A DNA stretch of 64,000 nt from Elsinoe ampelina (lineage: Eukaryota), in contig ML992504.1 of NCBI GenBank assembly GCA_010093995.1, positions 1 through 64,000 of the forward strand. Direction: 5' to 3'. Position numbers and translations under genes: made by a program. Positions 1 through 36,450 of the stretch are shown here, piece by piece (the stretch's first letter is position 1; every line of letters begins with the position of its first letter). The notes under the pieces are model-generated. The model saw only the letters and a list, made by a program, of their open reading frames with translations, was not told the origin of the DNA and did not search any database.

Positions 1-95
1 AACCCTAACCCTAACCCTAACCCTAACCCTAACCCTAACCCTAACCCTAACCCTAACCCTAACCCTAACCCTAACCCTAACCCTAACCCTAACCC
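1..95 (-). repeat. Telomeric repeat array (CCCTAA)n / (TTAGGG)n, about 16 units; chromosome end
   Basis: Perfect AACCCT units from base 1 to 95 at the very start of the window, in the C-rich orientation expected for a left chromosome end. Confidence 0.98.
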
Positions 96-97
96 AA

Positions 98-14385: not shown

Positions 14386-14392
14386 TTGGTGG
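14386..14392 (-). promoter_or_regulatory. Candidate galacturonic-acid-responsive element (GARE core CCNCCAA) upstream of the GH28 gene
   Basis: ttggtgg on + reads CCACCAA on -, about 270 bp upstream of the ATG. Short motif, could be chance. Confidence 0.35.
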
Positions 14393-15819: not shown

Positions 15820-15885
15820 AAAACGACGCTCAAGCGGGGAGGATAAAATCCAGTGCAAGGACAAAACTCAAAACTCCAAAGTCGG

Positions 15886-16034
15886 TCCTCCAATCTATTC
15901 AGTCCCACTTCAACATGCATTGCGCCGCGTCCAGATGCCCAGGGATACGGCGCTAAAGCAGGTGTTCATCTGTTCCTGAGCCCGGAGAACACCCCATGGA
16001 GACCGGAGCCGGCAATCGCATCCGAAGCGGCTAA
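15886..16034 (+). promoter_or_regulatory. Candidate GARE (TCCTCCAAT, 15886-15894) and XlnR/Xyr1 site (GGCTAA, 16029-16034) upstream of the GH6 gene
   Basis: Exact matches to the known consensus motifs 330-480 bp upstream of ATG 16366. Short motifs. Confidence 0.35.
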
Positions 16035-16365
16035 TGTCACAACACCTCTGCCAACCACATTGTCGCTCAACTCCCTAAGCATGGATGAGCACATTCATTT
16101 CGGCTGCTCGGAACAATCGCAAGGTACTCCTTCTGGCTTTCGGAGTCAACAATGTGTCCACCTTGGGAGGTTGCAGGTCAGATGAGACCCGCCACTTGTT
16201 CACAGGCTCATCTGATGTTCAAATTGCGTACCGACAAGGCATGTCGACGAGAGATGAGCTTGTCCAAGGCCAAGATGTCTTGTATAAAGCTTTGAGCCTC
16301 TCTCACCCCGTGTCTCATCAGCAGTTTCAGCTTTACCATCTCCAGCAGACCCGACGATCGACATC

Positions 16366-17809
16366 ATGAAGTACGCTGTCGCATCCGCTGCGCTCTTTGC
16401 CGCTGGCGCCACTGCCATTCCCGTGTACGGCCAATGTGGTGGAATGGGTTGGACCGGAACTGGAACATGCGACTCTGGCACCGTCTGCAACAAGATCAAC
16501 GACTGTGAGTATAAATTGACCTGCTCGAAATCTCTGCTGACAACCATTCAAAGACTACTCCCAATGCCTGCCAGGCTCCGCATCAACCACTTTGGCCACG
16601 ACCACGCGTGCGACCACTACTGGTGGTGCCACCACTACTCGTGCCACGACGACAGCCGCTGCAACGACCACTCGTTCTGCTAGCCCGACCACCTCAGGCG
16701 GATCTGCAACCACCTCCGCGCCCTCATCATCAAGTGGGAATATCTTCCTTGGCAAGCAGTACTATGCCAACCCGTACTATGCATCCGAGGTCAACAACCT
16801 TGCCATTCCATCTCTTCCGGCATCCCTGAAGCCAGCGGCTTCTGCTGCGGCCAAGGTCGGCTCTTTCGTGTGGCTCGATACTCTCGCAAAGGTTCCCACC
16901 ATGGACACCTACCTCGCCGACATTCAGAAACAGAGGGCAGCTGGAGCCGACGTTATTGGTCAATTCGTCGTCTACGATCTTCCCAACAGAGACTGCAACG
17001 CCCTTGCCTCCAACGGCGAGTACCTTGTCGCCAACGGAGGTCTCCAGAAGTACCTTGCTTACGTCGACACCATCGTCGCCATTGTCAAGAAGTATCCCAC
17101 TGTCCCCATCGCTCTCGTCATTGAGCCTGACAGTCTCGCCAACTTGGTCACCAACCTCGGAACACCCAAGTGCGCCGAAGCCCAGCAGGCATACATTACC
17201 GGTGTCGAGTACGCAGTCAAGAACTTGGACTTGCCCAATGTCGCTCAGTACATCGATGCTGGACACGCCGGCTGGCTTGGTTGGCCTGCTAATCTCCAAG
17301 GTGCCGCCGATATCTTCACCAGCATCTGGACTGGTGCCGGAAAGCCAAAGTCCCTTCGCGGTCTTGCTACCAACGTAGCCAACTACAACGCCTTTGACAT
17401 CTCCACTCCTCCACCCTACACCTCGCCAAACCCCAACTACGACGAGAAGCTGTACATCAATGCTCTCTACCCTCTCCTCAAGGCCAAAGGCTGGGATGCT
17501 CGCTTCATTGTTGACCAGGGTCGCTCAGGCGCTCAGCCCACCGGCCAACAAGCCTGGGGTGATTGGTGCAATGCTATCGGCACAGGCTTCGGTCCAAGAC
17601 CAAGCACAAACACTGGTGATGCCCTTGTCGACTCCTTCGTCTGGGTCAAGCCAGGTGGTGAATCTGATGGAACCTCCAATACCACCGCCGTTCGCTATGA
17701 TGGCTTCTGCGGAAAGGCTGCCGCCCTCAAGCCTGCTCCTGAGGCTGGAACCTGGTTCCAAGCATACTTCCAGCAGCTCCTCCAGAACGCAAACCCCAAG
17801 TTGGCATAG
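16366..17809 (+). CDS. cbh2: Cellobiohydrolase II (CBM1 - Thr-rich linker - GH6), secreted; intron 16505-16553
   Basis: Signal peptide; CBM1 [31 protein letters not shown] after splicing; GH6 motifs VVYDLPNRDC, IEPDSLANLVTN, DAGHAGWLGW, WGDWCN and WVKPGGESDG. Confidence 0.96.
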
Positions 17810-18265
17810 AAAGTTCGAAGCAAGAGCGAGGTCTGACGGTCACTAAAGAAATACAGTTCACAAGTACATATTCTATCTATCGTTCAAATCTGAAGTCCAA
17901 GCTAGATCTGTCCCTCGTATTCGCTACGTTGATTCCTGACCATTACCGCTGCACACATGCAGTGTTATCCTGGATCTATGAGGTCGCTCGACCCGATCTA
18001 TCTGGTGACGGCTTGACAGATCTTCCCCGCCTCTGAGTGCCGATCCTTTGCTTCCCCAGGACGATTTGACTGTGCCGAAAGCCGCAAATCCGTGAAGCAT
18101 CCTCAACAAGCGTGGAAAAGGGAGCATCATCTCCAAATGGCGTGCAGGTCATCGTCGGGGAAGGGATCTGCCACAATATGATGCGTGGGCTACAAAAGTC
18201 GCCGCTGTGCAATCTCAAAGCATCTCTCCTCCTCCGGCCATGTCTACCCTCTCGATTACGACGAC

Positions 18266-19909
18266 ATGAAGCCTGGCGTATACCAGTTTTTGGTAGGCTG
18301 TTTCGCCGCCCTTGGTTCATTTCTCTTTGGCTATGACCTGGCTGTCATTGCGGAGGTCGTCGCCTCGGATGACTTCATCGAACGCTTTCTCCAGACCAGT
18401 GGTAGTACTCGCTCCGGAACTGTGGTCGCTCTCTTCACGGCGGGATGCTTCTTCGGGGCATTCGTCGCAGGATACACTCGCCGAATTGGTCGTAGGGGCG
18501 TTATCTTCTTCGCCTGCTGTATCTTCATCGTCGGAGGTGCCATTCAGACAGCTGCTGTGGTGATTGGTATGCTGTATGCTGGCAGATTCATCGCAGGACT
18601 TGGAGTCGGCCTGTTAACGATGATCATCCCCATCTTTCAAGCCGAAATATCACATCGAAGAATTCGTGGCAGAGTGACCTGTCTCCAGCAACTCTTCAAT
18701 GCTCTTGGCCAGATCTTCGCTGCATGGATTGGATACGGTTGCTACATGACTTGGACAGGGACTGGCAACAGTAGCGAATGGCGTATACCATTAGCGATGC
18801 AGATAGTGCCAGCATTCGTTCTAGGAGGCCTTATATACCTGTTTCCTGAAGTAAGCTCGCCTGCACTCGAACATGAGTGATGGTATATACTGACAGCTTC
18901 TGCGTATAGAGTCCGAGATGGCTTTGCGATAACGGGTATAGTAAGCAAGGGCTTCGAAACCTGGCGCTACTGCATTCTCAGGGCGACGAGACCGACCCTT
19001 ATGTCGTAGCTGAGTACGACTTGATCCACAATCAGATTGCCGACGAGCAATCGCAGAGCCGTATTACATTCCTCGACCTCTTCCGAGACTGGCCAAATGT
19101 CCGCCGGATGATTATTGTGACTATGATCCAAGGTAGTCGCGGCCGAGTCTCTGACAGTGACATTGCTGATATCATCTGCAGCTGAATGTCAAATGACCGG
19201 GATTTCGGCTCTACAATACTTCTCGCCACAAATCTACGCCCAGATTGGCATAGCAACCTCTCAGTCTCTGATGTTCAATGGGGTGAATGCTGTCATCGCT
19301 TTTGTCGGTACTGCGACCTGTATCCTGGTTGTCGATAAGATTGGGCGACGTCCACTAGAGATATGTGGAGCGGCCATCATGTGTGCCACCTTCATCGTCA
19401 ATGCCAACCTAATCAAGGCATTTCCTGCGTCCGATCCATCGAATGAAGCTCATTGGGCTTTCGTCGCTTTGACATGGCTCTTCAACTACGTCTTCTTCGT
19501 CACCTCTGGTCCTCTATCATGGGCCATCCCAGCAGAATTATTCGGGACAGGTGCATTACGGATGAAGGGTGTCAGCGTAGGTGCCATGACAAGTTTCGCC
19601 TTCAACACCATGATTGGACAGGTGACACCAGTCGCTGTCTCTGCCATAGGATGGCAGTATTACCTAGTCTTCATCATCTGCAATGCCACGAACGGTCTCT
19701 TCTTCTACGCATTCTTGCCGGAGACAAAGGGACTCAATCTCGAGGACATGGATGAACTGTTTAGGGAAAGCCCCACCTTCATACCCGGCTCAAAATGGGT
19801 CCCAAGCAGTCAGATCGATCAGGAAGCAGATGCTATCCGAAGAAGGAAAGGGTTCAAGGACGGCATGCCGATCGCCGAGCAGGTAGAGGACGTCGGAGCA
19901 CGTTTATAG
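18266..19909 (+). CDS. MFS sugar porter (Sugar_tr family); introns 18851-18909 and 19133-19181
   Basis: FLFGYDL, IGRR, GRFIAGLGVG, EISHRRIRG, WRIPLAMQ, PE|SPRWL across the intron, DKIGRRPL and PETKG motifs, with about 12 hydrophobic segments. Confidence 0.93.
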
Positions 19910-20494
19910 AACGATGTGTGCTCGCGTGGCGTAGGCTCTGACCAGACAGGCTTGCAGGGGGTGGCGCTTGAGCGGAATGGAATGTCTCTTCTTCCACCCT
20001 GGAGAGGATGATATTGAGTTACAGTGGTCGAAGGATCCCAGAAGAATTCTCCGATGAGCAGTGTAACGGGACCAAAGCCACTCTCATCCTCCTGACCATG
20101 TCCGCATGATCAGTCTCCCTCCGTCGCTTGTAATCGGTAGTGCAGAAAGAAGCCGAAATTGCAGACTCCGTGTCAAGATTTCCGCCGCCTTGGCGTTTGC
20201 TTGAAAAAGCGGGGATTGGTTGTGGGGACCCCACAGGGCCCTCAGAAGTGTCACCAAAGTGCCTGGACCTGAACATGCTTGTTTGCAATTATTCCGTCTC
20301 GCATACAACGCTAGATTGACCAGGTTGTGATTCCGTATTTCCCACAGCGAGACTCACGGTGCCATGGCCGATGGCTTGACTTCCGATTGTACACAGAGCA
20401 CTGACAAGGTACCCGCTTCCCTATTCAGGTCAATTCGCGAAGCACAGTGGCAGCCTCGATCACCTCTTGGTATGGAAAGGATGGTCCTGACATT

Positions 20495-20503
20495 TCCACC
20501 AAT
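20495..20503 (+). promoter_or_regulatory. Candidate GARE (TCCACCAAT) upstream of the PL3 pectate lyase
   Basis: Full match to TCCNCCAAT about 140 bp upstream of ATG 20644 and about 40 bp upstream of a TATAAAA at about 20544. Confidence 0.5.
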
Positions 20504-20643
20504 ATGAGAAAGATGGTCCTTGTATCGATACAAGCTTCCTAATATAAAACATGCTGTTCCTGTCGTGAGATCCTGATTGCACCCACCAGAGAAGCTAGAG
20601 CCACAACAGCTCCATTGTACAAGACGCATTCCAACTCAGCAAG

Positions 20644-21831
20644 ATGAAGTACTCAAGCGCCCTCGCTGCTGCTCTCCTCAGCGGCTCTGCCGTTGCTCAA
20701 GCACCCCTGTACGGGCAATGCGGAGGGTGAGTGCTGGTCCACATCTGTGTGTGAAGTATCGACTGACAAATCGTATCAGAACTGGTTGGTCAGGAGCAAC
20801 CACTTGCGTGTCTGGCGCCACTTGTGTCTCTTCCAACCAGTACTACAGCCAGTGTCTTCCATCTGGATCCGGGGGTGGCGCGACGACGCTGAGCTCCACG
20901 ACAAAAGCATCATCGACCAAGAGTTCGTCAACTAAAACGTCCTCGACCAAGACCTCGTCGACCAAGACCTCGTCGACCAAAACGACGACCACAAAATCCG
21001 CTACAACGACTGCCGCTGGTGGCGGTGGGACTCCTCCAGTCGGTGTGACCACCGTCTTCCCAGCTGCATCTGGGGAGACTGCTGCGGCTTCGCCGATTCT
21101 CGTGGCTGCCGGTGTCTCTTATGACGGTGGCATGAAGCGTTTCTCTCGCAACCGTAAGTAACACTTCTCAGGTCCGTATAGTGTACGCTCTAAACCAAAT
21201 TTCAGCCGACACCTGCCAAGAGCAGAAGGAAACTGATGAAGCTGCCGCCATGTTCATTCTTGAGGATGGCGCTAAGATTTCAAACGCCATTCTGAGCAAG
21301 GCTCAAGCCGAGGGTATCCACTGCCGTGGTGCTTGGTGAGTTTCCATGACATGATACTTTGGTCGACACTGACGTCGACGAAGCACAATCCAGAACGTAT
21401 GGTGGGAGGACGTCTGCGAGGATGCCGCCACCTTCAAGCAAGCTGCTGGCTCGACCTCATACGTTATCGGAGGTGGTGCTCGTGGCGCTGCCGACAAGAT
21501 CTTCCAGTTCAACGGCCGCGGTACTGTTTCCATCAAGAACTTCTACGCCGAGGACTACGGCAAGGTTATACGCAGCTGCGGTGACTGCACTGCGAACGGA
21601 GGACCCCGCAATGTCATCATTGACAACGTCGTCGCCAAGGATGGAGGGCCTCTCTGCGGCATCAACTCGAACTTTGGCGATACTTGCCGCATCTCAAACA
21701 GTTGCCAGGATTCTGGAAAGAACTGCGACAGATACAAGGGCGTTGTGAAGGGTGAGGGAAGCTCTTCCAAGATTGGTAGCGGTCCGGACGATATTTCATG
21801 CTTTGTCTCTAACTTTAGCGAGACATGCTGA
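20644..21831 (+). CDS. CBM1-containing pectate lyase, family PL3, secreted; introns about 20727-20779, 21154-21205 and 21336-21387
   Basis: [19 protein letters not shown] signal; CBM1 [35 protein letters not shown] linker; PL3 motifs [46 protein letters not shown] and [12 protein letters not shown] ends at 21831. Confidence 0.93.
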
Positions 21832-22051: not shown

Positions 22052-23516
22052 CTACAAATTTGCATCGATGCCACCACCCCTGCGGTCCCAAACCCCCTGG
22101 ATACCCATGTCTAAACGTCTAGAGATAGTCAGCTCCGGACTCACGACCACTTGAATCTTACGTACCCATCATCCCTGTGCCAGATGTACGGCTCTTCAGA
22201 CTCGCTTGCCGGATTTCGAAAGACAACGCTCTTGATCTGCACTTGATGTCAGTGTATGATCGGACGATAACGTTCGGCTTGACTGACAAGACCAAGGGTG
22301 AGGTGAATGCCTGCTGGTGCGCTAGAATCGTACTCTTCAAGAGCCTCGCCTTGGATCATGTGTTCGATGTTCTGGGCAACAATTTCAGCTTGCTTGACAG
22401 CCCTATTCCACAGTCAGTGCTGTTGCAGGACGAAAGGATGGATACTGGTACGGTCTGGCTGCCTTGTGAGCGCCTGTGTCGGCAACATCACCTAGGGCGA
22501 ATATGTGAGGGTAGGCGGAATCGGCCACTTGTAGCGTCTTCGAAACCTTGATGAAGCCGTCCCCCGTCAATACTTCAGATGACAAGGATCCTACAAGTTC
22601 TGATCGTGGCGTTTGGCCAATGCATATGATCTGTGAATGTCAGCCAGAACCGTGTTTTTGAGTCCTAAGCAAACGCTTACCGCGAAATCAGTGTGCACTT
22701 TGGAACCGTCCGACAGCTCAACATCATACCCGCGACCATCTGTCGGATATCCTTCAGTAGGCAGCTTTACTCGAGAGCCCAGTTTCGTGGCGACGCCCAA
22801 CTCCTCGAATCTCGACTTGATGAGCTGATCCAGCTGTGTGTTCATACGGCTCATGAGGGTAGGTCGAGAATGTATCAGTGTGACCGACTTTTCGGGATAG
22901 AGTTCCTTGATATCAGTAGCTGTCTGAACTCCAACAGCACCACCACCGATGATGGCCATGGATGATGCTGCCTCCACCTTACGAGCATGCTTGACAAGGT
23001 ACTCCACTCCATCCGCTTTCTCGGACCCAGGCAAGGTTGATGGTGCAGAGAGCTTGGTACCGGTTGCAACCACCTACCGATCACTTAGCATTGTCAGACG
23101 ATTAATGTATCGGGCTTACGAACAAGGTAGGAGAATTTGATTCTATCAGTCTGCTCGCCATCAAGATTGACCTTCCTATCAAGGCGCAGGTTTTCTTTCT
23201 CGATGGCTGTTGCCGCTGCCTGAATGACCAACCCAGAACCGGATGGACAAATGGCGAAAGTTCCGGGGACAAATGGAATGAATGCTTTCCTTGTTTCCAC
23301 CTTTGTTGTGACAGCGAATCTGGGAAAAGCAAACAGATGCTGGAAATGTGAATTCTTCTCGACGAGCAAGACTCGTAGACGACCTTTCAGCCTATTTGCC
23401 AATTGTTGAGCCACATTAATTCCTGTCCCGATCAGTGACTCGTCCAGTTGTTCAGCAGGGATCCCCTTACCAACATAGCTTCCGCCAATCACGACCACAT
23501 TCTGAATGCTCGCCAT
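22052..23516 (-). CDS. AMID/AIF-like (FSP1-like) FAD/NAD(P)H-dependent oxidoreductase, Pyr_redox_2 family; about 6 introns
   Basis: VVVIGGSYVG FAD-binding start, HLFAFPRFAV, VATG, IIGGGAVGVQ NAD motif, VTLIHSR, IFALGDVAD, HKAARP and IHLTLGL. The spliced C-terminus ends ...GVWDRRGGGIDANL* at 22052. Confidence 0.88.
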
Positions 23517-23755
23517 GACAAGTCAACTCGATGATCTGATATAAAAGGCGATATCATGAGCGAACTTCACACAGCATATAAACAATTACGTCTCCGAACA
23601 TACCCTGGCCGCGCGGAATAGCTCGGGCCGATTCCGCTCTCCCCCCACATCGGGACAGGCAACATTGGACTCCTCCATCTGTCCCGATCTCCCTTTTGCA
23701 CCGACAAGGCTGAAATTCATGAACATTTACTACGCTGTAGACTCGAACCGATCTA

Positions 23756-24682
23756 TCACGTTGACAAACCGAAGCTCGGCGCGAAGCGCAGAGGAATATG
23801 CAAGAGTCTCTCTCCGTTGCTAGATGGCCACGGTGGTCTCCCGGCCCGGATGTTCCACTGCAATGCCTGATGCATCAGGCGTGGTTGAGCGAGCGAAGCG
23901 TCCCTCTCTTGTCTCCAGCTCACGAAATCCTCCTCTTTCGTACCGCTCTTGACATGCTTGTTGGCTGCCTTTTGCTCCTTCACTGTCGAGTAAGGCCGCT
24001 CTCTGGGTCCGTCGTCCTCCGCTACCCTTTCAGAAGGAGGATAGTCATGACCTGTGTACAGTCTGAAATCATCCGGTAGATTAAGCAGGCGTGTCATCGA
24101 CTCCCAAAGCTGAGATGCCGAACCTCCTGGAAAGTCGGTTCTGGCAGACCCAACATCAGGGTTGAAAATGGAATCACCCGTTAGCACGTTGGATCCCACC
24201 ATGTATCCCACGTGATCTGGGGTATGGCCAGGCAGATGCATCACTTCAACTTTGACGTTACCAATGTTGAACATCTCGCCATCCGCGAACGTATGTTCGA
24301 AAGCGGCCTCGACCTCATAGCTAGGGATCGAGTATCTCTCAGCCCACCTCTGCTGGACTGCCGAGATGCCACATCCAATGCAGATCGGTACGTTGGTGCC
24401 TTGATCGACTAAGAGATGGTCCTGCAGATATGCTGCCGCAGTGAGGTGATCAGCATGAGCGTGAGTCTCCAAGATCCATTCCACAGTCAAGTTGTCATTC
24501 CTTATCGTCTCTAGAAGATGGTCGGCAGTCGTCGTTGAAATCTCGTTCTTGACAGGATCGTAGTCTAGCACAGGGTCGACGATAGCACTCGCTTTGGTCG
24601 AGAGGTCTGTTATGATATGTTGCCAGGTACCGGTTATCGGCTCGAAGATACTTCGAATGACTGGTTCCATGATTGGTATCAT
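23756..24682 (-). CDS. MBL-fold metallo-hydrolase, Blh/persulfide (sulfur) dioxygenase-like, intronless
   Basis: IVDPVLDYDP, WILETHAHADHLTAA (HxHxDH), HLPGHTPDH, GDSIFNPDVGSARTDFPGG, LYTGHDYPP, NKHV and QWNIRAG. The start may be 24670. Confidence 0.88.
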   Translation of the reverse strand: MIPIMEPVIRSIFEPITGTWQHIITDLSTKASAIVDPVLDYDPVKNEISTTTADHLLETIRNDNLTVEWILETHAHADHLTAAAYLQDHLLVDQGTNVPICIGCGISAVQQRWAERYSIPSYEVEAAFEHTFADGEMFNIGNVKVEVMHLPGHTPDHVGYMVGSNVLTGDSIFNPDVGSARTDFPGGSASQLWESMTRLLNLPDDFRLYTGHDYPPSERVAEDDGPRERPYSTVKEQKAANKHVKSGTKEEDFVSWRQERDASLAQPRLMHQALQWNIRAGRPPWPSSNGERLLHIPLRFAPSFGLST

Positions 24683-25061
24683 CGAGCTTAAGCCGAGAGC
24701 TAGTTTGCTGATCTCGTTGACCGGGAAGAAGGAGGAAAGGGTATATATAGCATCACAGCCGATGTATGATGTGACAGGTTTCAGAGCTATACTTGAGTCG
24801 AGATATGCGTCGACTTAGTGTGCGTTTTGGTCTTGGTAACACTCCGGGGGTCGCATGCTCGCAAGGTCGCCGAAGCGCATCGAGCAGGTCGGCGATCTGG
24901 GATTGATGGATTCGTGGGTTCAGGATTCTGGACACCATAGACCTCGCGACCATCTGAAGGTCTGCAGTTCAACCTCATTCCGATAAGGACCTTCCGCCAG
25001 ACGAGCCTGGAGAAGCGATACGCCGACCTCGCTCGAGTGGTATAACGGCGAATGCCTTGAT

Positions 25062-25953
25062 TCATGCCCTCTTGATCTCAATTGCCTTGAACTTTTCCGC
25101 AACATCTTTGATGGCTTTTTCGACGGGCAGACGCTCCATCGAGCTCGCTCCGAAGAATCCATCGAGGCCCGAGACTCGATCAAGGACATATCGTGCGTGG
25201 TCCGGTTCGGCGATCGGTCCCCCGTGACAAAGGACTATCACATCACCTCTCCTCTGCTTTGCTGCCGATTTGATTGCTTCGACATCCAACACGCACTGTT
25301 CGAGTGTCCGGCCTGTCTGCGCACCGATTGTGCCACTCGTCGTGAGGCCCATGTGGGCAACCACGACATCTGCCCCAGCGTCGACCATCTTCACAGCTTG
25401 ATCGGGATCGAAGACGTAGGGGCAAGTCAACATCTCCAAGTCATGCGCTGACCTGATCATCTCAATTTCATTGTCGAAGCCCATTCCAGTTTCTTCCAGA
25501 TTGGCCCGAAATGTACCGTCGATCAAGCCGACGGTTGGAAAGTTCTGTACGCCCTCAAAGCCCTTGTCTTGAAGCTGCTTCAGAAAGTTGGGCATCAGAC
25601 GGAATGGGTCAGAGGCGCATACTCCAGCAATGACAGGGACTCTCAAAATGATCGGAAGGACCTCATCACCCATTTCAAGGACGACATCATTGGCATTGCC
25701 GTATGGCATCAAGCCCGCCAGTGACCCTCGTCCAGCCATTCGAAAGCGGCCACTGTTATATATTATAATGAGATCTCCATTACCAGCTTCGATTGACTTC
25801 GCAGTGAGACCGATACCTGATACTTCGGTCAATATTGATCGGGGTCTTCTTCTTGGGTGGCTTACCTGCTCCTGCTCCGACAATGGGCTTTCCAGCGTCG
25901 ATTTGCTTGCGAAAGTCTGCCAGGATGCGCGTACGATCTGTTGGAGGTGCCAT
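25062..25953 (-). CDS. TIM-barrel protein of the PEP-hydrolase-like / TIM-barrel signal transduction family (Tm-1 C-terminal domain homologue); intron 25817-25865
   Basis: Exon 1 MAPPTDRTRILADFRKQIDAGKPIVGAGAG splices to IGLTAKSIEAG..DLIIIYNSGRFRMAGRGSLAGLMPYGNAN. Then GVQNFPTVGLIDG, VAHMGLTTSG, LCHGGPIAEP and GFFGASSMERLPVE. Confidence 0.92.
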
Positions 25954-26167
25954 ATCCTCTCGAGGTTGCGTGACCTTGGAATGACTTGAGGATGATATAG
26001 AAAACGAATCGCAGAGTCAGAGGTAAAATTTCGTAGAAGAATGTGTACATCACAAGCGGCACACCTTTCTATCTGATGACGCAGCGTCGGGATCACCATC
26101 TCCTCATCTACCACGGATATCTAGCAGACCTCGTAGATTTCGACAAAGACATGACGGATCTGCACTG

Positions 26168-27475
26168 ATGCCTCATATCATTTTGCTCGGGACTCTGGAC
26201 ACCAAATTGCAGGAGTTCAAGTTTCTGCATTCGCAGCTCCTGTCAAACTCCAATTTCTCACGAAAGCCACGGATAACAGTCATCGATTGCGGAAGATCAG
26301 AAGTCAAGGACGATGTCATTAGTATCAGGCAGACAGACCTTGTCACAAAACACGGGAGTGAGTCTGTCGGCCCTCTCTCATCCATGTCACGTGGTGAGGT
26401 CATCAAATTCATGACCAGCTGTGCCACCAAGTGCGTAAAACAACTCATTGCGACCGAAAATGTCCATGCCATCTTTGGTGCCGGGGGCTCTGGTGGTACG
26501 AGCCTGATATCTGCAGTCATGAGAGATGCAGCTCCGATCGGAATGCCAAAGCTCATCGTTAGCACAATCGCTTCTGGAGATACGGGATCGCTGGTTGGGG
26601 AGACGGATATTACCATGATGTATAGTGTTGTCGACATTGCCGGAAGCAATTCGATATTGGATACAGTGCTAGCTAATGCTGCCGCTGCCATACTGGCAAT
26701 GGCAGCAAACCACGAATCGAAGAAGAGCCAGCATCGTGACCAAGCTCGTCTTCGGATTGGGATCACGATGTTTGGGGTCACAACGCCTGGCGTGAATGCC
26801 ATTCGACATCGGCTTGAACATCACCACCAGGCAGAAGTTCTGGTCTTCCATGCCACGGGTCATGGAGGTAAGGCAATGGAGAGACTGGTGCGAGAAGGTC
26901 AATTGGACGCTGTCATCGATCTCACCACGACTGAAATATGCGACCACCTGCTGGGCGGTAACATGAGCGCGGGACCAAATCGACTTGAAGCTGCTTTGAA
27001 GGCCGGTACCCCGACAATCATCTCACTGGGCGCCCCTGGTAAGTCTGATTCAAGTGAGTAACACCCGCCGTTGACAAGGCTAGACATGGTAAACTTTGGA
27101 CCAATAGGTTCCGTGCCAGCCAAGTATGAGAAGCGAAAGCTGTTGGAACATAATCCGACGGTGACGCTCATGCGAACCAGTGCGGAGGAATGCAAAGCTG
27201 TTGGGGGTTTCATTCTTGACAAGATCAATCGCTTCGCCAGTAATCCTCACCACGTCCAAGTTTGGGTTCCAACGGGAGGCATCAGTATGGTTGCCGTTCC
27301 AGGTGCGGTATTCCACGATGCATCAGCGGACAAGGCACTGTTCTCCTTACTGCGTAGCGGACTACAGGGAAAGGACGTCAAGTTGATCGAGGACGATCGT
27401 GACATCAACGACAAGGATTTGGCAATCAGCATCGCCGATGCTTTGATCAAAATTATCAACGATTGTGCAAGATGA
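26168..27475 (+). CDS. UPF0261 / Tm-1-like ATP-binding domain protein; intron 27039-27083
   Basis: LLGTLDTK, GAGGSGGTSL, PIGMPKLIVST, DITMMYSVVDIAGSN, TMFGVTTP, VFHATGHGGKAME, DLTTTEICD, SLGAP|DMVNFG, HNPTVTLMRTS and PTGGISM. Confidence 0.92.
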
Positions 27476-27613: not shown

Positions 27614-29193
27614 TTACAGCTTGCTGTACCCGTTGGCTCCGGTAATAACAACGGCGAACTGATTGCGCCACTCGCCAATGTTGGTCGCCTTCTGGTAATC
27701 GACCGCTGCATTGTAGAAAGTACAGCGGATGGTTGTCTGCATCGATGGATTCGGGCACTCACTGGCCGGATTTTGAGTCGGAGAGCGCTCGTAGTAGATG
27801 CTGAAGCCCTTGCAACCAGTAATAGAGTCGCATTGAGCGCTGCACTCCGTGACGTTGTAAGTTGCAAGATTCAGCATGCCAATGTAGCCATCCTGATTTA
27901 GCGAAGCGTAGAAGCCGGCGTATTCCCCTGTATATATTAGCATTCAGTTTCGTTTTCCAGGCTAGCTTGACTTACAAGTATAACCTCTTGGTGCTCTTGC
28001 GGATCCGGAGATGATATACAAGCCATTATCCGCCAAAAAGCCAGCTGGAGTCATGACTCCTGGAATGTAGGTGGAACCATAGTTTGGCTGTCTGCCACAT
28101 GGATCGTTGACACCGAGTACTCTAGTGGTCGTCGAAACCGCGGCGGTAGATGTCGTCGCGATGGCAGCAAGAGTTGTGATGGTAGACACACCCGAGGACG
28201 AAATGGATGAGGTAACGATCGAAGATGTGGCTGCGGATGACGAGGCAGAAGGCGAATTGGAGCTTGTCGAGCTTGATGCCGGTGCAGAAGTAGTGGCGGA
28301 AGAGCGGACGGACGAAGTAGTGGCAGATGTGGTGGTCGCCGAGGTTGAGACCGTTGTAGTCCTGCTGCTCGATGCACTTGCTGTTCTGGAAGACGTTCTT
28401 ACAGAGCTACTCGTTGCCGACAAACATTGATAATAGTAAGCATTCGCCGACACGCAAGCCCATCCATTTACACAGTCGTAGGTCTGGGTGACAGGCGAGC
28501 CGACACCGCAAGCTCCCCACCCATCGACGGTCGGTGTCACGACCGCGGCGGCGGCAGCGGCAGTGGTGGTAGTGACTGTCGCGCTGGTTGTTCTACTAGC
28601 TGCAGAGCTCGAAGTGGCGGACAAACACTGGTAGTAAAAAGCATTTGCGGACCTGTTAAAGCCGTCAGTCACCATCGACCATGTCGAAGACGCTGGCCGT
28701 ACACGCAAGCCCATCCGTTGACACAATCGTATGTCGAAGTCACAGGTGATCCAGCGCCACACCCAGCCCACGGCTGCATTGTCTGCTGTTGACGTTTCTG
28801 AAGATTGGCAGGCTCGGTGGTAACGGGGGCGTCCACTCCGGTCTGAACGATGCGTATCTTTGGCGTCGCGACAGCAGCTTTCTTGTTGGTCTTGGCTGCC
28901 TTCTTCTTCTTCTTTGTGGTCTTCTTCGCCGGCTTCTTCTTCGTCGTCTTGACCGGCTTTTTCTTGGTTGTCGTCAGGATTGTGGTGTCGACAATCGCGG
29001 TGGTTGTTGCTAACGCTGGGGCTGTAGTCGATGGCTTCATAGATTGCATAGCCTTCAACACTGATGACACAGCGGAGGCCCTGTCCTTGATGGTCATGGG
29101 ACTCTGGGATCCATCCTCCTGAACATCCTGCTCGACCTCAGCGGCAATAGCCACCGTGGCCAAAGTAGTAAGAGAGGCAAGAAGGAATCTCAT
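27614..29193 (-). CDS. Secreted modular protein: Lys-rich pro-region, two CBM1-like modules, S/T linker and an uncharacterised Cys-rich C-terminal domain; introns 28653-28702 and 27928-27975
   Basis: Signal MRFLLASLTTLATVAIA; LQKR Kex2-like site; near-duplicate modules WAGCGAGSPVTSTYDCVNGWACVSANAFYYQC and WGACGVGSPVTQTYDCVNGWACVSANAYYYQC; C-terminal CSAQCDSITGC..YYERSP..CPNP..IGEWRNQFAVVITGANGY. Confidence 0.8.
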
Positions 29194-31821: not shown

Positions 31822-32567
31822 ATGAAGATCACGCTTGGTCTCGCTGCTCTCGCCGGGTTGGGTGCTGCTGCACCGACCGACCTTGACAAACGCCAGACAG
31901 GCTCGACTGCCAATGAACTGAGTGGACCATGCCGTCCTGTCACTTTTATCTTTGCCAGAGGATCCACAGAGACCGGCAACTTGGTAAGTGTGATAGTGTA
32001 GCCTGTCGGCTGTCATTGACCGCGACAAGGGTACCATCATTGGACCTCCAGTTTCGAACGGCCTGAAGGCTCGCTACGGCGCAGGCAACATCGCCACTCA
32101 GGGTGTCAACTACGCTGCCCTCCTTACCACCAACTTCATTCCCAATGGTGGAGATCCTCAGGGTATCCAGGATATGAAGAACCAACTTACCACGGCCGCC
32201 AACAAATGCCCAAACACCAAGATTGTGGCTGGTGGTTACAGGTATGTTGATCGGACGCCGATGACGACCAGATCATGCACTTATACAGCCATACAGTCAG
32301 GGAGCTGCCATTACCCATCAAGCCATCGAGACCTTGTCGGCTGCGGTACGCAACCGCATTGTTGCGGCCGTAACCTTTGGTGATACCCAGAATCTTCAGG
32401 ATGGAGGCCGCATTCCCAATTATCCGCCGGCCAATACTCGCATCTTCTGCGCGCTCGGCGACCCCGTCTGTGTTGGAACTCTCATCATCAATGTCGCGCA
32501 CTTGTCGTATGGCGTCGATGCAGGGCCAGCCGTTAGCTTCCTCAGCTCCAAGATTGGCAACATCTAG
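31822..32567 (+). CDS. Cutinase (CE5), secreted; two introns (about 31984-32029 and 32242-32296)
   Basis: Signal/pro-peptide ending [29 protein letters not shown] nucleophile motif split by an intron; [24 protein letters not shown] at 31722-31728. Confidence 0.95.
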
Positions 32568-33009
32568 TGGTGTAGGAATGGGTTGGCTGGCGATGAGGTG
32601 AGAACACAGCTGGGTGGTATAAAGGAATGAGAGAATAGCTTGTGCTGTAGTTTTCTAGTACGTACTTGATCTTTGAATAAAGCCACCCGCTAGTTACCAA
32701 ACCAACGACAGACGATCAAGGTTGTCCGGTCGAAATGCTGTGGATTCAAGAAAACATGAAAGGATGAAAAAAGAAGTCCGGCAGAGTGACGCGGTAGCAA
32801 AAACCGCCGTATTAGACGGTTTTAGCGTAAAAGACGCTAAATTGCATGGCGTCAGGGACCTGGGCGTGCTCCACCAATTTTGGCAGAGATTATCCCATCC
32901 GGCGGACTCCGATAGATATCTCTTGGCTCGATTCTGCCACCCTTTGCCACTTTTATGTCGTCGATATAGCTTGTAAAATTGTTAATCTTAGAGTCACTAA
33001 TTTGCTGTA

Positions 33010-34200
33010 ATGGATGACTATTACTACTATACTCTAATAATAGCCCTTATAGCTCTTATAGTTATAATAGCTACTTATAATAAAGAGAAGCGCTAGTAGT
33101 AACCTCTATATATTAATTAGCCTCGGTAGAGAGAGTAAGAGGCCCCCCCCTATCGATATAGAGACCTCTATCTATACTATTAATTTATATAGACAATTAA
33201 TTAATAGGAGAATTATAAGTTTAATAAGCTAGTATAGTAGGTATATACTCTTAATAGCTAAGCTATCGATAGCTAATAAGACTATACTAGCTTTACGAGA
33301 CTTAAGGTTATTAAACTAATTAATATATTAGATATCTAGTAGCTACGATTTACTAATAAGATTAAGCCTTTACTAGAGCTAGTACTCTATATAACTCTTT
33401 ACTAGCTAGCTTATCTAGGTTAGTAGTATATTTAATCTAACCTCTTTAGCTAGTATATTAGCTATCTATCGATAATTACTATAGAGGTAATTCTTTACCT
33501 TAAGTATAAATTTAGTAGCCTTCTTAATTAGTACTCTTAGCTAGATAACTACTACTAGCTTAAGTACTTTAGCTAGTGTATTAAGTAAGGTAGTAGGGAT
33601 AGAGTAATCTAGAGCTTCCTCGATAGTATCTTTAGAGGCTTCTAAAGGCTAATAATTAATTAAGAAGCCTATTACTCTAGCTATAAGAAGGAGTATAGTA
33701 TAAAGTATACTAGTATCTATATACTAGATAGTCTAATATCCTTATATACTAGTCTATACTAAGGAGCTATTAATAACTAGAGCTAGTTCTTAGTGTCTAA
33801 ATTACTATAGAGATTAGGTAAAATTAATAAGAGAGTTAAAGAAGATAATATACTATTCCTCCTTAGAGATACTACCTACTAGCTTAGTAAGAGCGTTATT
33901 AACTTATTACTCCCTTTAGCTAAGCTAGAGTCTTAACGCTAGAGGCTACTATATTTAACTAGAGAATAGCCTTAATCTATATAGAGGTAAAGTACGTCTT
34001 TAGACTTATAAGAAAGTACTAGACCTATATAGATTATAATAGAGACTTATCTATAGTACGCTAGCCTATAGATATATATTACTAAGTTTATATACTCTTA
34101 ACTAATCTTTATATAGTAACGAACGGAGGAAATTAAATATCTAAGCGCTTTATATACTCTCTACTAATAATAAGACAATATTTAAGACTTATACTAGATA
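33010..34200 (+). pseudogene. DDE_Tnp_4 (Harbinger-type) transposase relic
   Basis: Reversing C>T/G>A changes by eye gives LYRLAYP..LFGR, VIWGFLDG..RP..NQEAYYSG.KKEHG.KY....PDGL....GP..G..ND, LGDAAY, FNQRMASIRIEVEHVFG..KYW and LLTNL..GGNQISKRF. Stops are TAA/TAG at Gln/Trp positions, and there is at least one frameshift. Confidence 0.85.
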
Positions 34201-34599
34201 AATTTATAGAATAGAAAGACTTAGAAGAGAGTATATAGTATAAAACGCCGAGCATTAAACGCTATATACTAAAATATTTATACCTATTAAATTGTTAGTA
34301 TAATATTATAATAATAATACAAATTAATTTCTACTATAAATAGTATACTCTAAATTACTTATCTATACTTCTCTAAGCTTAAAAGAAGTTATAGTAGTAA
34401 AGTTATAAATTTTAAAAGTAATAATAGCTAACTCTAGTAATAGCTTTAGTATTTAACAATAAGAGAATATAATTAGGTAAGTACTTATAAGATTAACTTT
34501 ATTAATATTATAAAATTCTCTACTACCTCTAGTACTTCCTTTATCTCTTTTATCTTTACTACGCTATATAATTTAACTACTTAATTACTATAGTATTAT

Positions 34600-35540
34600 A
34601 AGGACTTAGTTCTAGCTATACTATATTTGCTATAATTACAACTCTAATATAGCTAGTCTCTAGTCTTAAGTAGGTAAGGTACCGCTCGAGAGGTTATAGA
34701 TATAATTAACTAATCGATTAATAGGCTTAACTAAGCTTAAAGAAGTTAGCTATATACTAGTAGCTAATAATATAGAAGATAAAGAAATAAGACTCTAGCT
34801 ACTAACTAATAAAGAACTTATTTACTAAGATACTTAGTAAGCGTTCTAGATAGCTTAAGCTTAGTTTACTTAGTCTATTATTATATTATAAGTTCTTATA
34901 GTTACTACTACTTATTAAGCTTATAATTGTTAAGTCTCTTTTTACTTAGTAATTTCTCTCTTATATAGTAGCTAGTAAGTATCTATAAACTTGTCTAAGG
35001 CGTTATTTAAAGGCAATTATATCTCCTTACTAGAGTAGTTAGTAGTAAAGTTAGTATGCTTATTCTTTCTCTTAGTAATTAAATTTTTAAAGTTATACCT
35101 TAAGCTACTATACTTATAACTCTCTACTATAAACTACTAATAATTAAGAAGCTAACTAAACTTCTAGAAAGTAATAAATTAAAGCTACGCGCTAATACTA
35201 TAAGTAATTCGGACAAGTAATAGCTTCTTCTTAATAGGCTACTAGCTAAGCTTATACTAGTAGTATACTACTTACTCTAGTGTCTTTTCTTTCTTCTTCT
35301 TCTTCTCCTTCTTAACTTTACCTCTCTTACTTCTCTTACTAGTACTAGCTTTACTAGCCTTAGTAGTCTTAGCCTCTTCTACTAGTTATAAAGTAGTTAT
35401 AGCTACTACCTCTTATTCTTCTCTCTCTCTTTCTTAGCTACTTTAACTTACTTCTCTACTACTATATAAGCCTTGTCCTTTACCTTTTCTAGCGCCTTAA
35501 CTACGTAGCGCTTTAGCCTCTACTACTAGTTATAGATAGA
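34600..35540 (-). pseudogene. Probable second (DNA-binding/accessory) ORF relic of the Harbinger element, convergent with the transposase
   Basis: The minus strand reads as a K/E-rich stretch followed by KKKLLLVRI....FITFWKF...ALNNALDKFID. PHIS elements typically carry a second ORF. Boundaries are approximate. Confidence 0.45.
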
Positions 35541-36450
35541 GTTAGTAGGCCTATAGTAGTAGAGGCTAAAAAGGTAAATATTAATAACCTCTAGCTAGTA
35601 GAGAGAAGAGTTATTAAGAGGCTAAAGGTAGTTAGAGAGGTATTTAAGAGAAAGGAGAAGATAGAGGCTATAATAAAGAAGATAATTAAGAGGCTTAAAG
35701 AGGAGAGATTAATAATGCTAGAGAACTTAGTAGTAGTATTTAGTAGTATAGGGATTAGTATACTAGCTACTAAGGAGCTTAAGATTAATCTCTAATACCT
35801 TATAAGAGCTAAGGAGTAATATTTAAGAAGTTATTTATGTTAAAGGACAACTATTTACTAATTTTTAAAGCCTCTATATTACTACTAACTCCTCCTCTAC
35901 TAACTTAAGGTTACTAGCTACCTTACTGCCTTTCTAAAAAGGTAACCTAAACGAGCTAAACAACTGCTCTAGCACTCTAAAAGACTCCTCTAGCTCGCTT
36001 ATAGAGTTCACGCTTATTTGCCCTTAAGCTGCAAAAGATCGGCCACTAAAAAGGTGGAAGAGGCCAGCTAAAACCGTCTATTCCCACTGAACATCCAATA
36101 GCAGCCATCCTACGGCCGTATCGTCATCAGGTCTGATGGTCAAAGTTCAAGCATGGTGGCGTGGTGGGCCCTGCGTGGTTGAAATGAGGAGCCCCGCAAC
36201 TTCTCCATGCTCATGACGTAGCAAGCGAGAAGGCTTCCTGCATCCGAGCATGCCATCTCAACAGATCACCAGCCATTTCCTTGCAGTGGGTCGATGGGCT
36301 GGCAGTCCGGGTGAATTGAACCCGCATCATGACAAGATGGGACCTCACTATTCCCCTCTTCCATGCCGTATAGATGTGTCCCCACGACCACCTCCTGGAC
36401 AAAGGTAGGTCTCTTTCCATAGTGCCTTCACCCGGCTTACCACCGCAAGT

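What the first reader, a model, noticed from the sequence alone, without database searches (positions are those of the whole stretch)
25062..27475. Split Tm-1: head-to-head UPF0261 and TIM-barrel genes sharing a 214-bp promoter
Seen: two intact intron-containing genes diverge from a 214-bp spacer (ATGs 25953 and 26168). Established: these two domains are fused in the tomato tobamovirus-resistance protein Tm-1, whose N-terminal UPF0261 part binds the viral replication helicase, and they are usually adjacent genes in bacteria and archaea; their native biochemical role is unknown. Inference: the fungus keeps them as a co-regulated two-component complex in a subtelomeric accessory block. It could act in an unknown metabolic or signalling pathway, or as a mycovirus replication inhibitor. 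This is one of the best candidates here for an uncharacterised system.
Basis: partly seen in the sequence, partly recalled or inferred. Interest (0 to 1): 0.8.

Follow-up and report, generated by a model that had tools for sequence, protein, structure and literature searches.

The report
Split Tm-1-like fungal gene pair
Two back-to-back fungal genes encode the two halves of the protein family that tomato uses as its Tm-1 virus-resistance factor; the pairing is real and conserved among fungi, but it is a widespread, already described module whose biochemical job is still not known.

Summary
A 280-aa PF09370 TIM-barrel gene (25062-25953, minus) and a 420-aa UPF0261 gene (26168-27475, plus) diverge from a 214-bp spacer. 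Each has one intron. Spliced contigs from public runs confirm both introns.

The pair lies about 25 kb from a telomere, but it is not an accessory novelty. Split, co-evolving UPF0261 and TIM-barrel genes in Dikarya fungi were published in 2016. A UPF0261 protein, MarK, was shown in 2025 to be an ATP-dependent phenol kinase, so the family's biochemistry is no longer wholly unknown.

New here:
- The head-to-head layout is fungus-specific and conserved: 13 of 13 informative fungal-type metagenome loci, against 0 of 80 prokaryote genome loci, where 69 are co-directional operons.
- The spacers share a candidate TGACG-type element.
- The fungal kinase keeps MarK's ATP-site and catalytic-His positions but not its acetovanillone pocket.
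- Bacterial regulators next to the operons use a TIM-barrel paralogue as their non-DNA-binding domain.

My best reading is a two-subunit, ATP-dependent small-molecule kinase plus TIM-barrel enzyme module with an unknown substrate. Nothing supports an antiviral role. Interest is moderate to low: a new member of a known kind.

The parts
25062..25953 (-). PF09370 (PEP_hydrolase / 'TIM-barrel signal transduction', TBST) gene, 280 aa. Exon 1 is 25953-25866, the intron 25865-25817 (49 nt), and exon 2 25816-25062 including the stop.
   Evidence: Splice model. Pfam PF09370 at 7.5e-118. 100% identical to deposited protein P0121, 280 aa. The 49-nt intron is skipped in contigs of runs X1, X2 and X7. 2P10 (Mll9387) matches at 8.1e-106. 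The model has pLDDT 90.4.
25817..25865 (-). Intron of the TIM-barrel gene. An alternative acceptor at 25823 would give a 43-nt intron and a 282-aa protein.
   Evidence: One search lists both in-frame acceptors. One search shows the 49-nt form. A Sclerotinia orthologue is reported to use alternative 3' splice sites in intron 1 (PMC7749757, one passage).
25954..26167 (.). 214-bp shared spacer between the two start codons; a putative bidirectional promoter.
   Evidence: An X2 contig extends the TIM-barrel transcript to 26000. An X1 contig runs through the whole spacer, but a contig does not show a single transcript.
26077..26083 (.). TGACGCA on the plus strand (TGCGTCA on the minus strand). It is a candidate conserved bZIP-type (TGACG-core) element, 85 bp from the UPF0261 ATG and 124 bp from the TIM-barrel ATG.
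   Evidence: T[AG]CGTCA is the top one-degenerate 7-mer in the spacers: 9 of 11 spacers, and 7 of 8 non-redundant ones. The best motif in 200 dinucleotide shuffles never reached these values (maxima 8 and 6). Without the window it is 6 of 7, reached in 7 of 200 shuffles. The assignment to bZIP factors is from recall.
26168..27475 (+). UPF0261 (Tm-1-like ATP-binding) gene, 420 aa. Exon 1 is 26168-27038, the intron 27039-27083 (45 nt), and exon 2 27084-27475 including the stop.
   Evidence: Splice model. Pfam PF06792 plus PF23189. 100% identical to deposited protein P0001. The intron is skipped in X1 and X2 contigs. Tm-1 3WRY matches at 1.6e-81 and MarK 9MPY at 1.6e-46.
1..92 (.). Telomere repeat (CCCTAA)n at the window start. 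It is context only and places the pair about 25 kb from a chromosome end.

Best explanation
This is the fungal, split form of the Tm-1-like protein: a self-contained two-gene module.

The plus-strand gene encodes a UPF0261 protein. It keeps the ATP-site and catalytic-histidine positions of the one characterised family member, the small-molecule kinase MarK. The minus-strand gene encodes a very strongly conserved PF09370 TIM barrel.

The two genes are transcribed divergently from a short shared promoter. I infer that the products work together, probably as a complex. The UPF0261 subunit would use ATP to phosphorylate a hydroxyl or enol group of a small, common metabolite. The TIM barrel would bind or convert that (phospho-)metabolite.

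The substrate is not acetovanillone and remains unknown.

- Shown: gene structures, domains, expression and splicing, conserved head-to-head linkage in fungi, operon linkage and fusions elsewhere, and conservation of the MarK and Tm-1 catalytic positions.
- Inferred: the complex, the kinase activity of this protein, the role of the barrel, and the shared regulation.
For: - Domains and gene models.
- Expression: both genes are expressed and spliced in contigs of runs from more than one study.
- Linkage in fungi: 13 of 80 metagenome loci are head-to-head. All 13 are fungal-type. Twelve have an intron-extended TIM-barrel match of 876-963 nt, and L005 is split in two pieces. Their flanks carry eukaryote-type genes. 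ATG-to-ATG spacers are 175-351 bp. Adjacent locus tags occur in two named Dothideomycetes (6226t1/6227t1 and g6321/g6320).
- Linkage in prokaryotes: 69 of 80 genome loci are UPF0261>TIM-barrel, with a median gap of 51 bp; none is head-to-head.
- Fusions: UPF0261 then TIM barrel in plants, rotifers, bacteria and Aspergillus rambellii.
- Congruent trees: fungi form one clade in both trees, SH-like support 100 and 98. Published co-evolution in fungi gives r = 0.81 (PMC5028733, passages).
- Kinase competence: D11 is invariant, and G8, T9, T12, K13 and E16 are at least 90% conserved. K13 aligns to Tm-1 K20, the ATP alpha-phosphate contact. H228 is invariant and aligns to MarK His219. G203 aligns to Gly195 and H313 to His304 (roles from PMC12624787 passages).
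- Barrel conservation: the TIM barrel is 60-68% identical between fungi, bacteria and plants, with 39 invariant columns. That level is typical of an enzyme acting on a universal ligand.
- Nearest solved non-family neighbour: an uncharacterised TIM barrel 'with the conserved phosphate binding site' (4ML9, Z 20.7). Next come PEP-mutase/isocitrate-lyase superfamily enzymes at Z 15-18.
- Ligand binding: TIM-barrel paralogues joined to AraC or sigma-54-activator DNA-binding modules lie beside the operons (7 of 19 and 2 of 13 loci examined). This suggests the barrel binds a small ligand.
Against: - No direct evidence of binding between the two proteins was obtained.
- MarK works as a homodimer without a TIM-barrel partner, so the barrel is not needed for UPF0261 kinase chemistry as such.
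- MarK's substrate-pocket residues are not kept here: Thr196 is V204, Phe283 is M292, Ile285 is N294 and His348 is V360. The substrate cannot be inferred.
- Beyond its own family, the barrel's fold matches are generic TIM barrels (Z 14-18 for many unrelated enzymes), so fold assigns no chemistry.
- Prokaryote neighbourhoods are heterogeneous: ABC, TRAP, MFS and Na/alanine transporters, aldo-keto reductases, aldolase, a RuBisCO-like protein, GSDH-cytochrome c. They point to no single pathway.
- No third gene is conserved next to the fungal pairs.
- Contigs cannot show co-regulation.
- The promoter motif was first seen by eye. It was then recovered as the top motif in an unbiased enumeration on only 11 partly related spacers, and it is absent from L003 and L004.
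Confidence: 0.55

Rival explanations
1. Signal-sensing module. The TIM barrel is a ligand sensor, not an enzyme. It controls, or is controlled by, the ATP-binding UPF0261 protein as a metabolite-responsive switch.
For: - PF09370 domains occupy the sensor position of sigma-54 activators (L013:1983-3722, L057:722-2491).
- They occupy the same position in AraC-type regulators (L082, L086, L088, L103, L159, L096, and partially L125).
- One follows a receiver domain in a hybrid histidine kinase (P0248).
- These regulators sit next to UPF0261-TIM-barrel operons.
Against: - The regulator-borne domains form their own long-branch clade, apart from the stand-alone barrels.
- The stand-alone barrels are far more conserved (60-68% identity across kingdoms) than sensor domains usually are.
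- No DNA-binding or signalling output domain is present in the fungal pair.
Confidence: 0.2
2. Two separate enzymes that only share a promoter. They act in the same or a neighbouring pathway without forming a complex.
For: MarK acts alone as a homodimer. Eight of 80 prokaryote loci show a TIM barrel with no UPF0261 in the fetched DNA, three of them with about 5-6 kb on both sides (L091, L132, L144). L064 has a lone barrel among KARI, GAPDH and glycerate-kinase genes.
Against: Fusions recur in at least four lineages, always in the same order. Co-occurrence is near-obligate and co-evolution is published. Gaps in operons are very tight, with a median of 51 bp.
Confidence: 0.15
3. MarK-like catabolic kinase for plant-derived phenolics. 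The fungus would use it while degrading host cell walls.
For: MarK phosphorylates lignin-derived phenols. The window is rich in plant-cell-wall enzymes. A UPF0261 orthologue group is up-regulated late (6.9x and 9.2x) in two brown-rot fungi on wood (PMC6867892, table passage).
Against: The acetovanillone-pocket residues are replaced. No carboxylase or phosphatase partners like acvCDEF appear among the window's Pfam hits. The flanking CAZyme genes are not conserved next to the pair in other fungal loci. The protein is closer to Tm-1 (1.6e-81) than to MarK (1.6e-46).
Confidence: 0.07
4. Inhibitor of mycovirus replication, by analogy with tomato Tm-1 binding the tobamovirus helicase.
For: Only homology to Tm-1's N-terminal part supports this. 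That part binds the ToMV replication protein through a bridging ATP, as stated in PMC12624787 passages.
Against: - The family is ancient and near-universal, and the barrel is extremely conserved. This is the opposite of an arms-race pattern.
- Neither protein matches a PADLOC model.
- From recall, not checked here: only particular Tm-1 alleles inhibit particular tobamoviruses, so virus binding is a derived trait.
Confidence: 0.03

Closest known systems
Tomato Tm-1 / plant Tm-1-like proteins (PDB 3WRV-3WRY for the N-terminal part)
   Same: Both domains are homologous. The UPF0261 part matches at E 1.6e-81 over residues 2-414. The TIM barrel is 59-63% identical to the plant C-terminal domains. 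The ATP-contact lysine is kept (Tm-1 K20 aligns to K13).
   Different: Here the two parts are separate, divergently transcribed genes. Plants form a separate clade, with different bacteria, in both trees. No link to viruses is known or indicated.
MarK (Saro_1862) of Novosphingobium aromaticivorans, PDB 9MPY
   Same: It belongs to the UPF0261 family (E 1.6e-46). The catalytic His219, Gly195, His304 and the D-T-K ATP motif are conserved here.
   Different: MarK is a stand-alone homodimer beside acvCDEF. Its pocket residues Thr196, Phe283, Ile285 and His348 are V, M, N and V here. This protein has a dedicated TIM-barrel partner.
Bacterial UPF0261 plus PF09370 operons (for example Mll9387, PDB 2P10)
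   Same: The same two families are linked. The barrel matches 2P10 at 8.1e-106, with TM 0.91 and Z 39.9.
   Different: The bacterial genes are co-directional, usually UPF0261 first, with a gap of about 50 bp (69 of 80 loci). The fungal genes are head-to-head, carry introns, and have a 175-351-bp spacer.
Published fungal split Tm-1 homologues (Sci Rep 2016, PMC5028733)
   Same: This pair is one of them: separate UPF0261 and TBST genes in Dikarya, mostly one of each, and co-evolving.
   Different: The passages I read do not mention gene orientation, a shared promoter or a cis-element. 'Head-to-head' occurs 0 times in that text, and 'adjacent' occurs once, about plants.
PEP mutase / isocitrate lyase superfamily TIM barrels
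   Same: They are the best-scoring characterised enzymes after the family's own structure: 2-methylisocitrate lyase at E 7e-11, and phosphonopyruvate hydrolase 2DUA at Z 18.4.
   Different: Identity is only 13-17%, TM is about 0.6, and many unrelated TIM barrels score nearly as high. The catalytic motifs were not compared.

Membership tests
UPF0261 (PF06792 + PF23189) | Both Pfam domains score above the gathering threshold. | tested here: met
   201 bits for the N-terminal domain, and 152 plus 126 bits for the C-terminal domain split by the intron. The cut-off is 27 bits.
PF09370 PEP_hydrolase / TIM-barrel signal transduction protein | A Pfam match above threshold over nearly the whole profile, with a TIM-barrel fold. 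| tested here: met
   393 bits against a cut-off of 33.8; pLDDT 90.4; 2P10 at TM 0.91 and Z 39.9.
Tm-1-like protein (plant type) | UPF0261 and the TIM barrel lie in one polypeptide. | tested here: not met
   The two genes are on opposite strands. The deposited proteins are 420 and 280 aa.
Tm-1-like protein (plant type) | Binds and inhibits a viral replication protein. | not testable with these tools
MarK-type aromatic kinase | ATP-site D-T-K motif and the catalytic His219 equivalent. | tested here: met
   D11, T12, K13 and H228 are conserved in 58 sequences.
MarK-type aromatic kinase | Acetovanillone pocket residues Thr196, Phe283, Ile285 and His348. | tested here: not met
   V204, M292, N294 and V360 stand at the aligned positions.
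MarK-type aromatic kinase | Gene context with the acvCDEF carboxylase and phosphatase genes. | tested here: not met
   No such families appear among the Pfam hits of the 36 window ORFs scanned between 7069 and 44118. ORFs beyond 44118 were not scanned.
PEP mutase / isocitrate lyase superfamily | Shared barrel with the superfamily's Mg2+-binding and catalytic motifs. | tested here: inconclusive
   Fold matches reach Z 15-18, but so do many other TIM barrels. The motifs were not compared residue by residue.
Bidirectional-promoter gene pair | Divergent orientation, a spacer under 1 kb, and conservation of the arrangement. | tested here: met
   The spacer is 214 bp here. 13 of 13 informative fungal-type loci are head-to-head with spacers of 175-351 bp.
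Bidirectional-promoter gene pair | Correlated expression of the two genes. | tested here: inconclusive
   Both genes are present and spliced in X1 and X2. Contig depth cannot rank or correlate genes.
Subtelomeric accessory gene block | Near a telomere, and lineage-restricted or variable in content. | tested here: not met
   The telomere repeat lies at 1-92, so the position criterion is met. The pair itself is conserved across many fungal classes, so it is not accessory.
Known anti-phage defence systems (PADLOC) | A match to a PADLOC model. | tested here: not met
   Neither protein matches any family at E <= 0.01.

The most novel reading that the evidence does not exclude
UPF0261 and the PF09370 barrel together form a previously unrecognised class of split ATP-dependent phosphotransferase, analogous in logic to PEP-utilising enzymes. 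UPF0261 supplies the ATP site and a conserved histidine (H228). The TIM barrel supplies the site for an enolisable or hydroxylated universal metabolite. Bacteria re-use barrel paralogues as the sensor for that same metabolite. Fungi fixed the two halves on one bidirectional, TGACG-element promoter. Finding the substrate in a tractable fungus would reveal the native function of plant Tm-1.
Probability: 0.2. Interest if true: 0.7.

Novelty: new member of a known kind. Interest (0 to 1): 0.35.

Why it matters
The Tm-1 family occurs in bacteria, archaea, fungi, plants and rotifers, and its TIM-barrel half is unusually conserved. Yet its native function is unknown, apart from one stand-alone kinase described in 2025.

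This window adds no new kind of system. The comparison made here does give three usable handles:
- In fungi the two halves are a fixed head-to-head unit, so double knockouts and promoter reporters are simple to build.
- The catalytic positions to mutate are known (K13, H228).
- Bacterial regulators carrying the same barrel next to the operons could be used as biosensors to find the ligand.

If the substrate were found, the ancestral role of a classic plant virus-resistance protein would be explained.

Tried and rejected
- Own genome: none is held for this window. Copy number and synteny within the genome could not be checked.
- Complex prediction of the two proteins with alignments A1 and A2: the job was not folded. 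The tool does not pair a eukaryote chain with a chain that may be microbial. It gave no verdict, and I did not try again in any other way.
- RNA runs: no RNA holder is listed on record. The runs used are labelled 'RNA?' or '?'. Their spliced contigs show that transcripts exist, but they give no levels.
- NCBIfam: only below-cut-off PRK02399 matches for the exon pieces, and nothing for the barrel.
- Literature searches for PF09370, PF06792 and 'PEP_hydrolase' found 0 papers. Searches for y4oU, y4oV, Mll9387 and Saro_1862 gave nothing beyond the MarK paper. AFUA_1G10110 and neighbouring tags gave one listing on horizontal transfer, which I did not read. Later terms added nothing on function.
- Exact k-mers in the spacers were not above shuffles. 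That call's shuffle routine could also return unshuffled sequence, so I replaced it with a proper dinucleotide shuffle.
- The first splice script used a wrong end coordinate and printed nothing. It was corrected.
- One Pfam call exceeded the residue limit. I re-sent 71 of the 148 chosen neighbour ORFs. The other 77 ORFs, from 18 loci, were never scanned.
- Fold searches beyond the family's own structure gave only generic TIM-barrel similarity.
- A conserved third gene next to the fungal pairs: none found in 8 loci.
- Supplements of the 2016 and 2025 papers were not opened. They may list gene positions and orientation.
Full report
OBSERVATION

Enumerating GT..AG introns that keep the frames open gives one sensible model per gene.

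- Minus gene: ATG at 25953, a 49-nt intron at 25865-25817, stop at 25062; 280 aa.
- Plus gene: ATG at 26168, a 45-nt intron at 27039-27083, stop at 27475; 420 aa.
- The start codons are 214 bp apart.

Pfam places the plus gene in UPF0261 (PF06792 at 1.6e-59; PF23189 at 1.5e-44 and 1.6e-36 on the two exons). It places the minus gene in PF09370 at 7.5e-118. The large protein database holds proteins of exactly these lengths at 100% identity. Their source names them as hypothetical and TIM-barrel proteins of Elsinoe ampelina (P0001, P0121).

Contigs of public runs laid on the stretch skip exactly the two introns. The 49-nt skip appears in X1, X2 and X7. The 45-nt skip appears in X1 and X2, and X3 has loose ends that match. 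One X7 contig keeps the 45-nt intron. So both genes are transcribed and spliced as modelled. Contigs say nothing about expression levels.

SETTING

The window starts with (CCCTAA)n at 1-92, so the pair lies about 25 kb from a chromosome end. Pfam hits on the window's ORFs give the surrounding genes:
- GH28, a Thg1-like gene, CBM1-GH6, a sugar transporter and CBM1-pectate lyase.
- A Pyr_redox_2 gene and a metallo-beta-lactamase-fold gene directly beside the TIM-barrel gene.
- Then cutinase, carboxylesterase, pectate lyase and an HSF-type factor.

No genome is held for the window.

WHAT IS ALREADY KNOWN

A 2016 paper (PMC5028733; abstract and passages) reports the following:
- UPF0261 and 'TBST' proteins are encoded by separate genes in bacteria, archaea and fungi.
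- Among fungi they occur in Dikarya.
- 61 of 68 fungal genomes with a TBST gene have one of each.
- Their distance matrices correlate (r = 0.81 in fungi).
- Two Aspergillus genes are fused.

A 2025 paper (PMC12624787; passages) shows that MarK, a UPF0261 protein, is an ATP-dependent kinase for acetovanillone and other phenols. It is a homodimer that produces ADP, and its structure is 9MPY. The authors call this the first catalytic function in the family.

In the passages I read I found no statement on gene orientation in fungi. 'Head-to-head' occurs 0 times in the 2016 text. Searches gave no other paper on the pair's function.

LINKAGE

I scanned metagenome contigs with the TIM-barrel protein (534 pattern matches, 182 relatives, best 80 kept). 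I then located both genes by tblastn.

Of the 80 metagenome loci:
- 13 are head-to-head.
- 44 are co-directional UPF0261>TIM-barrel.
- 4 are TIM-barrel>UPF0261.
- 19 show no UPF0261 in the DNA held, most of them with under 1 kb on the relevant side.

The 13 head-to-head loci are exactly the fungal-type ones:
- Twelve have a TIM-barrel match stretched to 876-963 nt by an intron, and L005 is in two pieces.
- UPF0261 identity to the window's protein is 38-57%.
- Their flanks carry eukaryote-type genes: NOX-type ferric reductase, GH76, an enolase in pieces, MFS, 2EXR and KIX.

The only other intron-type locus, L002, has just 231 nt upstream. Several of the 13 are near-copies (L023/L024; L058/L061/L067; L003/L004), so they represent about nine lineages. 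No third gene recurs next to them.

- 69 loci are UPF0261>TIM-barrel, with a median gap of 51 bp; 68 of them have a gap of 300 bp or less.
- 3 are TIM-barrel>UPF0261.
- 8 have no UPF0261 in the fetched DNA.
- None is head-to-head.

Named fungi give supporting hints. Locus tags are adjacent in two Dothideomycetes. In about ten species, including Aspergillus, Aureobasidium, Delphinella and Myriangium, both proteins are listed with the same longest-contig length, which suggests one contig.

FUSIONS AND HISTORY

A search for longer proteins (559 hits among 7998 candidates) finds UPF0261-TIM-barrel fusions in several groups:
- land plants and Closterium;
- bdelloid rotifers;
- several bacterial assemblies;
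- Aspergillus rambellii.

The six proteins I scanned show the order UPF0261 then barrel where both are present. One hybrid histidine kinase carries a C-terminal barrel.

I built quick FastTree trees of the two domains (59 and 65 rows after thinning near-identical bacterial rows from 70 and 99; SH-like support only; midpoint root; no AU test). They agree on these points:
- Fungi form one clade in both trees (support 100 and 98). The barrel clade includes L011, which I had labelled bacterial but which is probably a cut fungal contig.
- The A. rambellii fusion nests among Eurotiales.
- Rotifers and the fused bacterial forms are the nearest groups (88 and 92, not starred).
- Plants sit elsewhere, with other bacteria.

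The two genes therefore seem to have travelled together.

THE SHARED SPACER

Eleven spacers (ten loci plus the window, 175-351 bp) are otherwise unalignable. I enumerated every 7-mer with one two-fold degenerate position. The top motif is T[AG]CGTCA.
- It occurs in 9 of 11 spacers. The best motif in 200 dinucleotide shuffles reached at most 8.
- It occurs in 7 of 8 non-redundant spacers, against a shuffle maximum of 6.
- Without the window it occurs in 6 of 7, a value reached in 7 of 200 shuffles.

The motif lies 81-163 bp upstream of the TIM-barrel ATG and has the same orientation in 8 of 9 spacers. In the window it is TGACGCA at 26077-26083. L003 and L004 lack it. A TGACG core is what bZIP factors bind; that point is from recall. 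I treat the motif as a candidate shared element, not as a finding.

WHAT THE PROTEINS LOOK LIKE

The UPF0261 protein matches the solved N-terminal part of Tm-1 (1.6e-81) better than MarK (1.6e-46). In an alignment of 58 fungal and bacterial sequences (A1):
- D11 is invariant.
- G8, T9, T12, K13 and E16 are at least 90% conserved.
- K13 aligns to Tm-1 K20, and the motif corresponds to MarK D14-T15-K16.
- H228 is invariant and aligns to MarK His219, which bonds the phenolic oxygen.
- G203 aligns to Gly195 and H313 to His304.

MarK's pocket residues Thr196, Phe283, Ile285 and His348 are V204, M292, N294 and V360 here. The catalytic frame is kept, but the substrate must differ.

The TIM barrel matches Mll9387 (2P10) at 8.1e-106 and models well (pLDDT 90.4). 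After 2P10 (TM 0.91, Z 39.9), its best neighbours are:
- an uncharacterised barrel 'with the conserved phosphate binding site' (4ML9, Z 20.7);
- PEP-mutase/isocitrate-lyase superfamily enzymes (E 1e-8 to 7e-11, Z 15-18).

Many other TIM barrels score similarly. Alignment A2 (56 sequences) has 39 invariant columns and 67% mean identity. Fungal, bacterial and plant barrels are 59-68% identical.

PROKARYOTE CONTEXT

The flanks are varied. They include branched-chain-type ABC, TRAP, MFS and Na/alanine transporters, aldo-keto reductases, an aldolase, GFO/IDH/MocA oxidoreductases and GSDH-cytochrome c proteins. In a gut contig there is a SorC regulator, a PHP protein, two barrels and a RuBisCO-like protein.

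The one recurring feature is a regulator whose non-DNA-binding part is a barrel paralogue:
- Barrel plus sigma-54 activator in 2 of 13 metagenome loci examined (L013, L057).
- Barrel plus AraC HTH in 7 of 19 genome loci examined (L082, L086, L088, L103, L159, L096, and partially L125).

This argues that the barrel fold binds a small ligand tied to the operon's function.

READING

The best reading is a two-subunit module. UPF0261 is an ATP-dependent small-molecule kinase. The barrel binds or converts the same (phospho-)metabolite. In fungi the two are fixed as a divergent pair on one promoter.

- Shown: structure, expression, linkage, fusions, and conserved catalytic positions.
- Inferred: the complex, the activity, the barrel's role and co-regulation.

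MarK's independence from any barrel and the heterogeneous contexts are the main caveats.

The antiviral idea has no support. The family is ancient and conserved rather than fast-evolving, and neither protein matches a PADLOC model.

Scattered expression notes:
- A UPF0261 orthologue group is up-regulated late in two brown-rot fungi on wood (PMC6867892, table passage). No TIM-barrel entry was found in that text.
- A Sclerotinia orthologue of the barrel gene shows host-dependent alternative 3' splice sites in intron 1 (PMC7749757, one passage). The window also offers two in-frame acceptors six bases apart.
- A wheat Tm-1-like gene is associated with grain weight (PMC5167734, passages).

VERDICT

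The feature is real and correctly described, and it is an instance of a known, widespread, functionally unresolved gene pair. The conserved head-to-head layout, the candidate promoter element and the regulator-borne barrel paralogues are modest additions. The finding is not a special system of this genome.

Noticed in passing
window 1-240: The telomere repeat (CCCTAA)n runs to base 92. It is followed by short AT-rich repeats of the type TATATACTCTAG.
   Followed up: partly
window 7080-7294: A run of 215 N, either an assembly gap or a masked stretch.
   Followed up: no
window 12551-21828 and 31997-39756: The subtelomere is dense in plant-cell-wall enzymes: GH28, CBM1-GH6, CBM1-pectate lyase (PF03211), cutinase, carboxylesterase and pectate lyase (PF00544), plus a sugar transporter.
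   Followed up: partly
window 14959-15816 (+): A Thg1-type tRNA-His guanylyltransferase domain (5.9e-35) sits among the subtelomeric CAZyme genes. It may be a second copy of a housekeeping gene.
   Followed up: no
window 22594-24814 (-): A Pyr_redox_2 flavoprotein gene and a metallo-beta-lactamase-fold gene lie next to each other directly beside the TIM-barrel gene. From recall, they resemble a sulfide:quinone reductase and persulfide dioxygenase type pair. This neighbourhood is not conserved in the other fungal loci.
   Followed up: partly
window 27614-29137 (-): A long Ser/Thr-rich ORF has cysteine motifs like fungal cellulose-binding modules but no Pfam hit. It is probably a secreted repetitive protein.
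   Followed up: no
L082:3235-4605, L086:3393-4583, L088:3441-4658, L103:3232-4431, L159:3440-4648, L096:7019-8218; L013:1983-3722, L057:722-2491: Bacterial regulators made of a PF09370 barrel plus an AraC HTH, or plus a sigma-54 activator module, lie next to UPF0261-barrel operons. P0248 is a hybrid histidine kinase that ends in the barrel.
   Followed up: partly
L075:1858-8434 (L077 holds the same barrel-UPF0261-barrel part): A gut-metagenome cluster holds a SorC-type regulator, a PHP protein, a barrel, UPF0261, a second barrel and a RuBisCO-like protein. This may be a sugar-acid type pathway that could hint at substrates.
   Followed up: no
L027:1813-3966, L046:1312-3603: An ABC-transporter ATPase domain and UPF0261 lie in one open frame of 718-764 aa. 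This is either a true fusion or two genes without an intervening stop in my ORF call.
   Followed up: no
window 27014-27401, run X7: One contig of run X7 retains the 45-nt UPF0261 intron, while the same run splices the TIM-barrel intron. This is either intron retention or DNA in the run.
   Followed up: no
L003, L004: Two head-to-head loci are more distant from the rest: UPF0261 is only 42% identical, the barrel match spans 942 nt, and the TGACG-type motif is absent. They may come from another fungal phylum.
   Followed up: no
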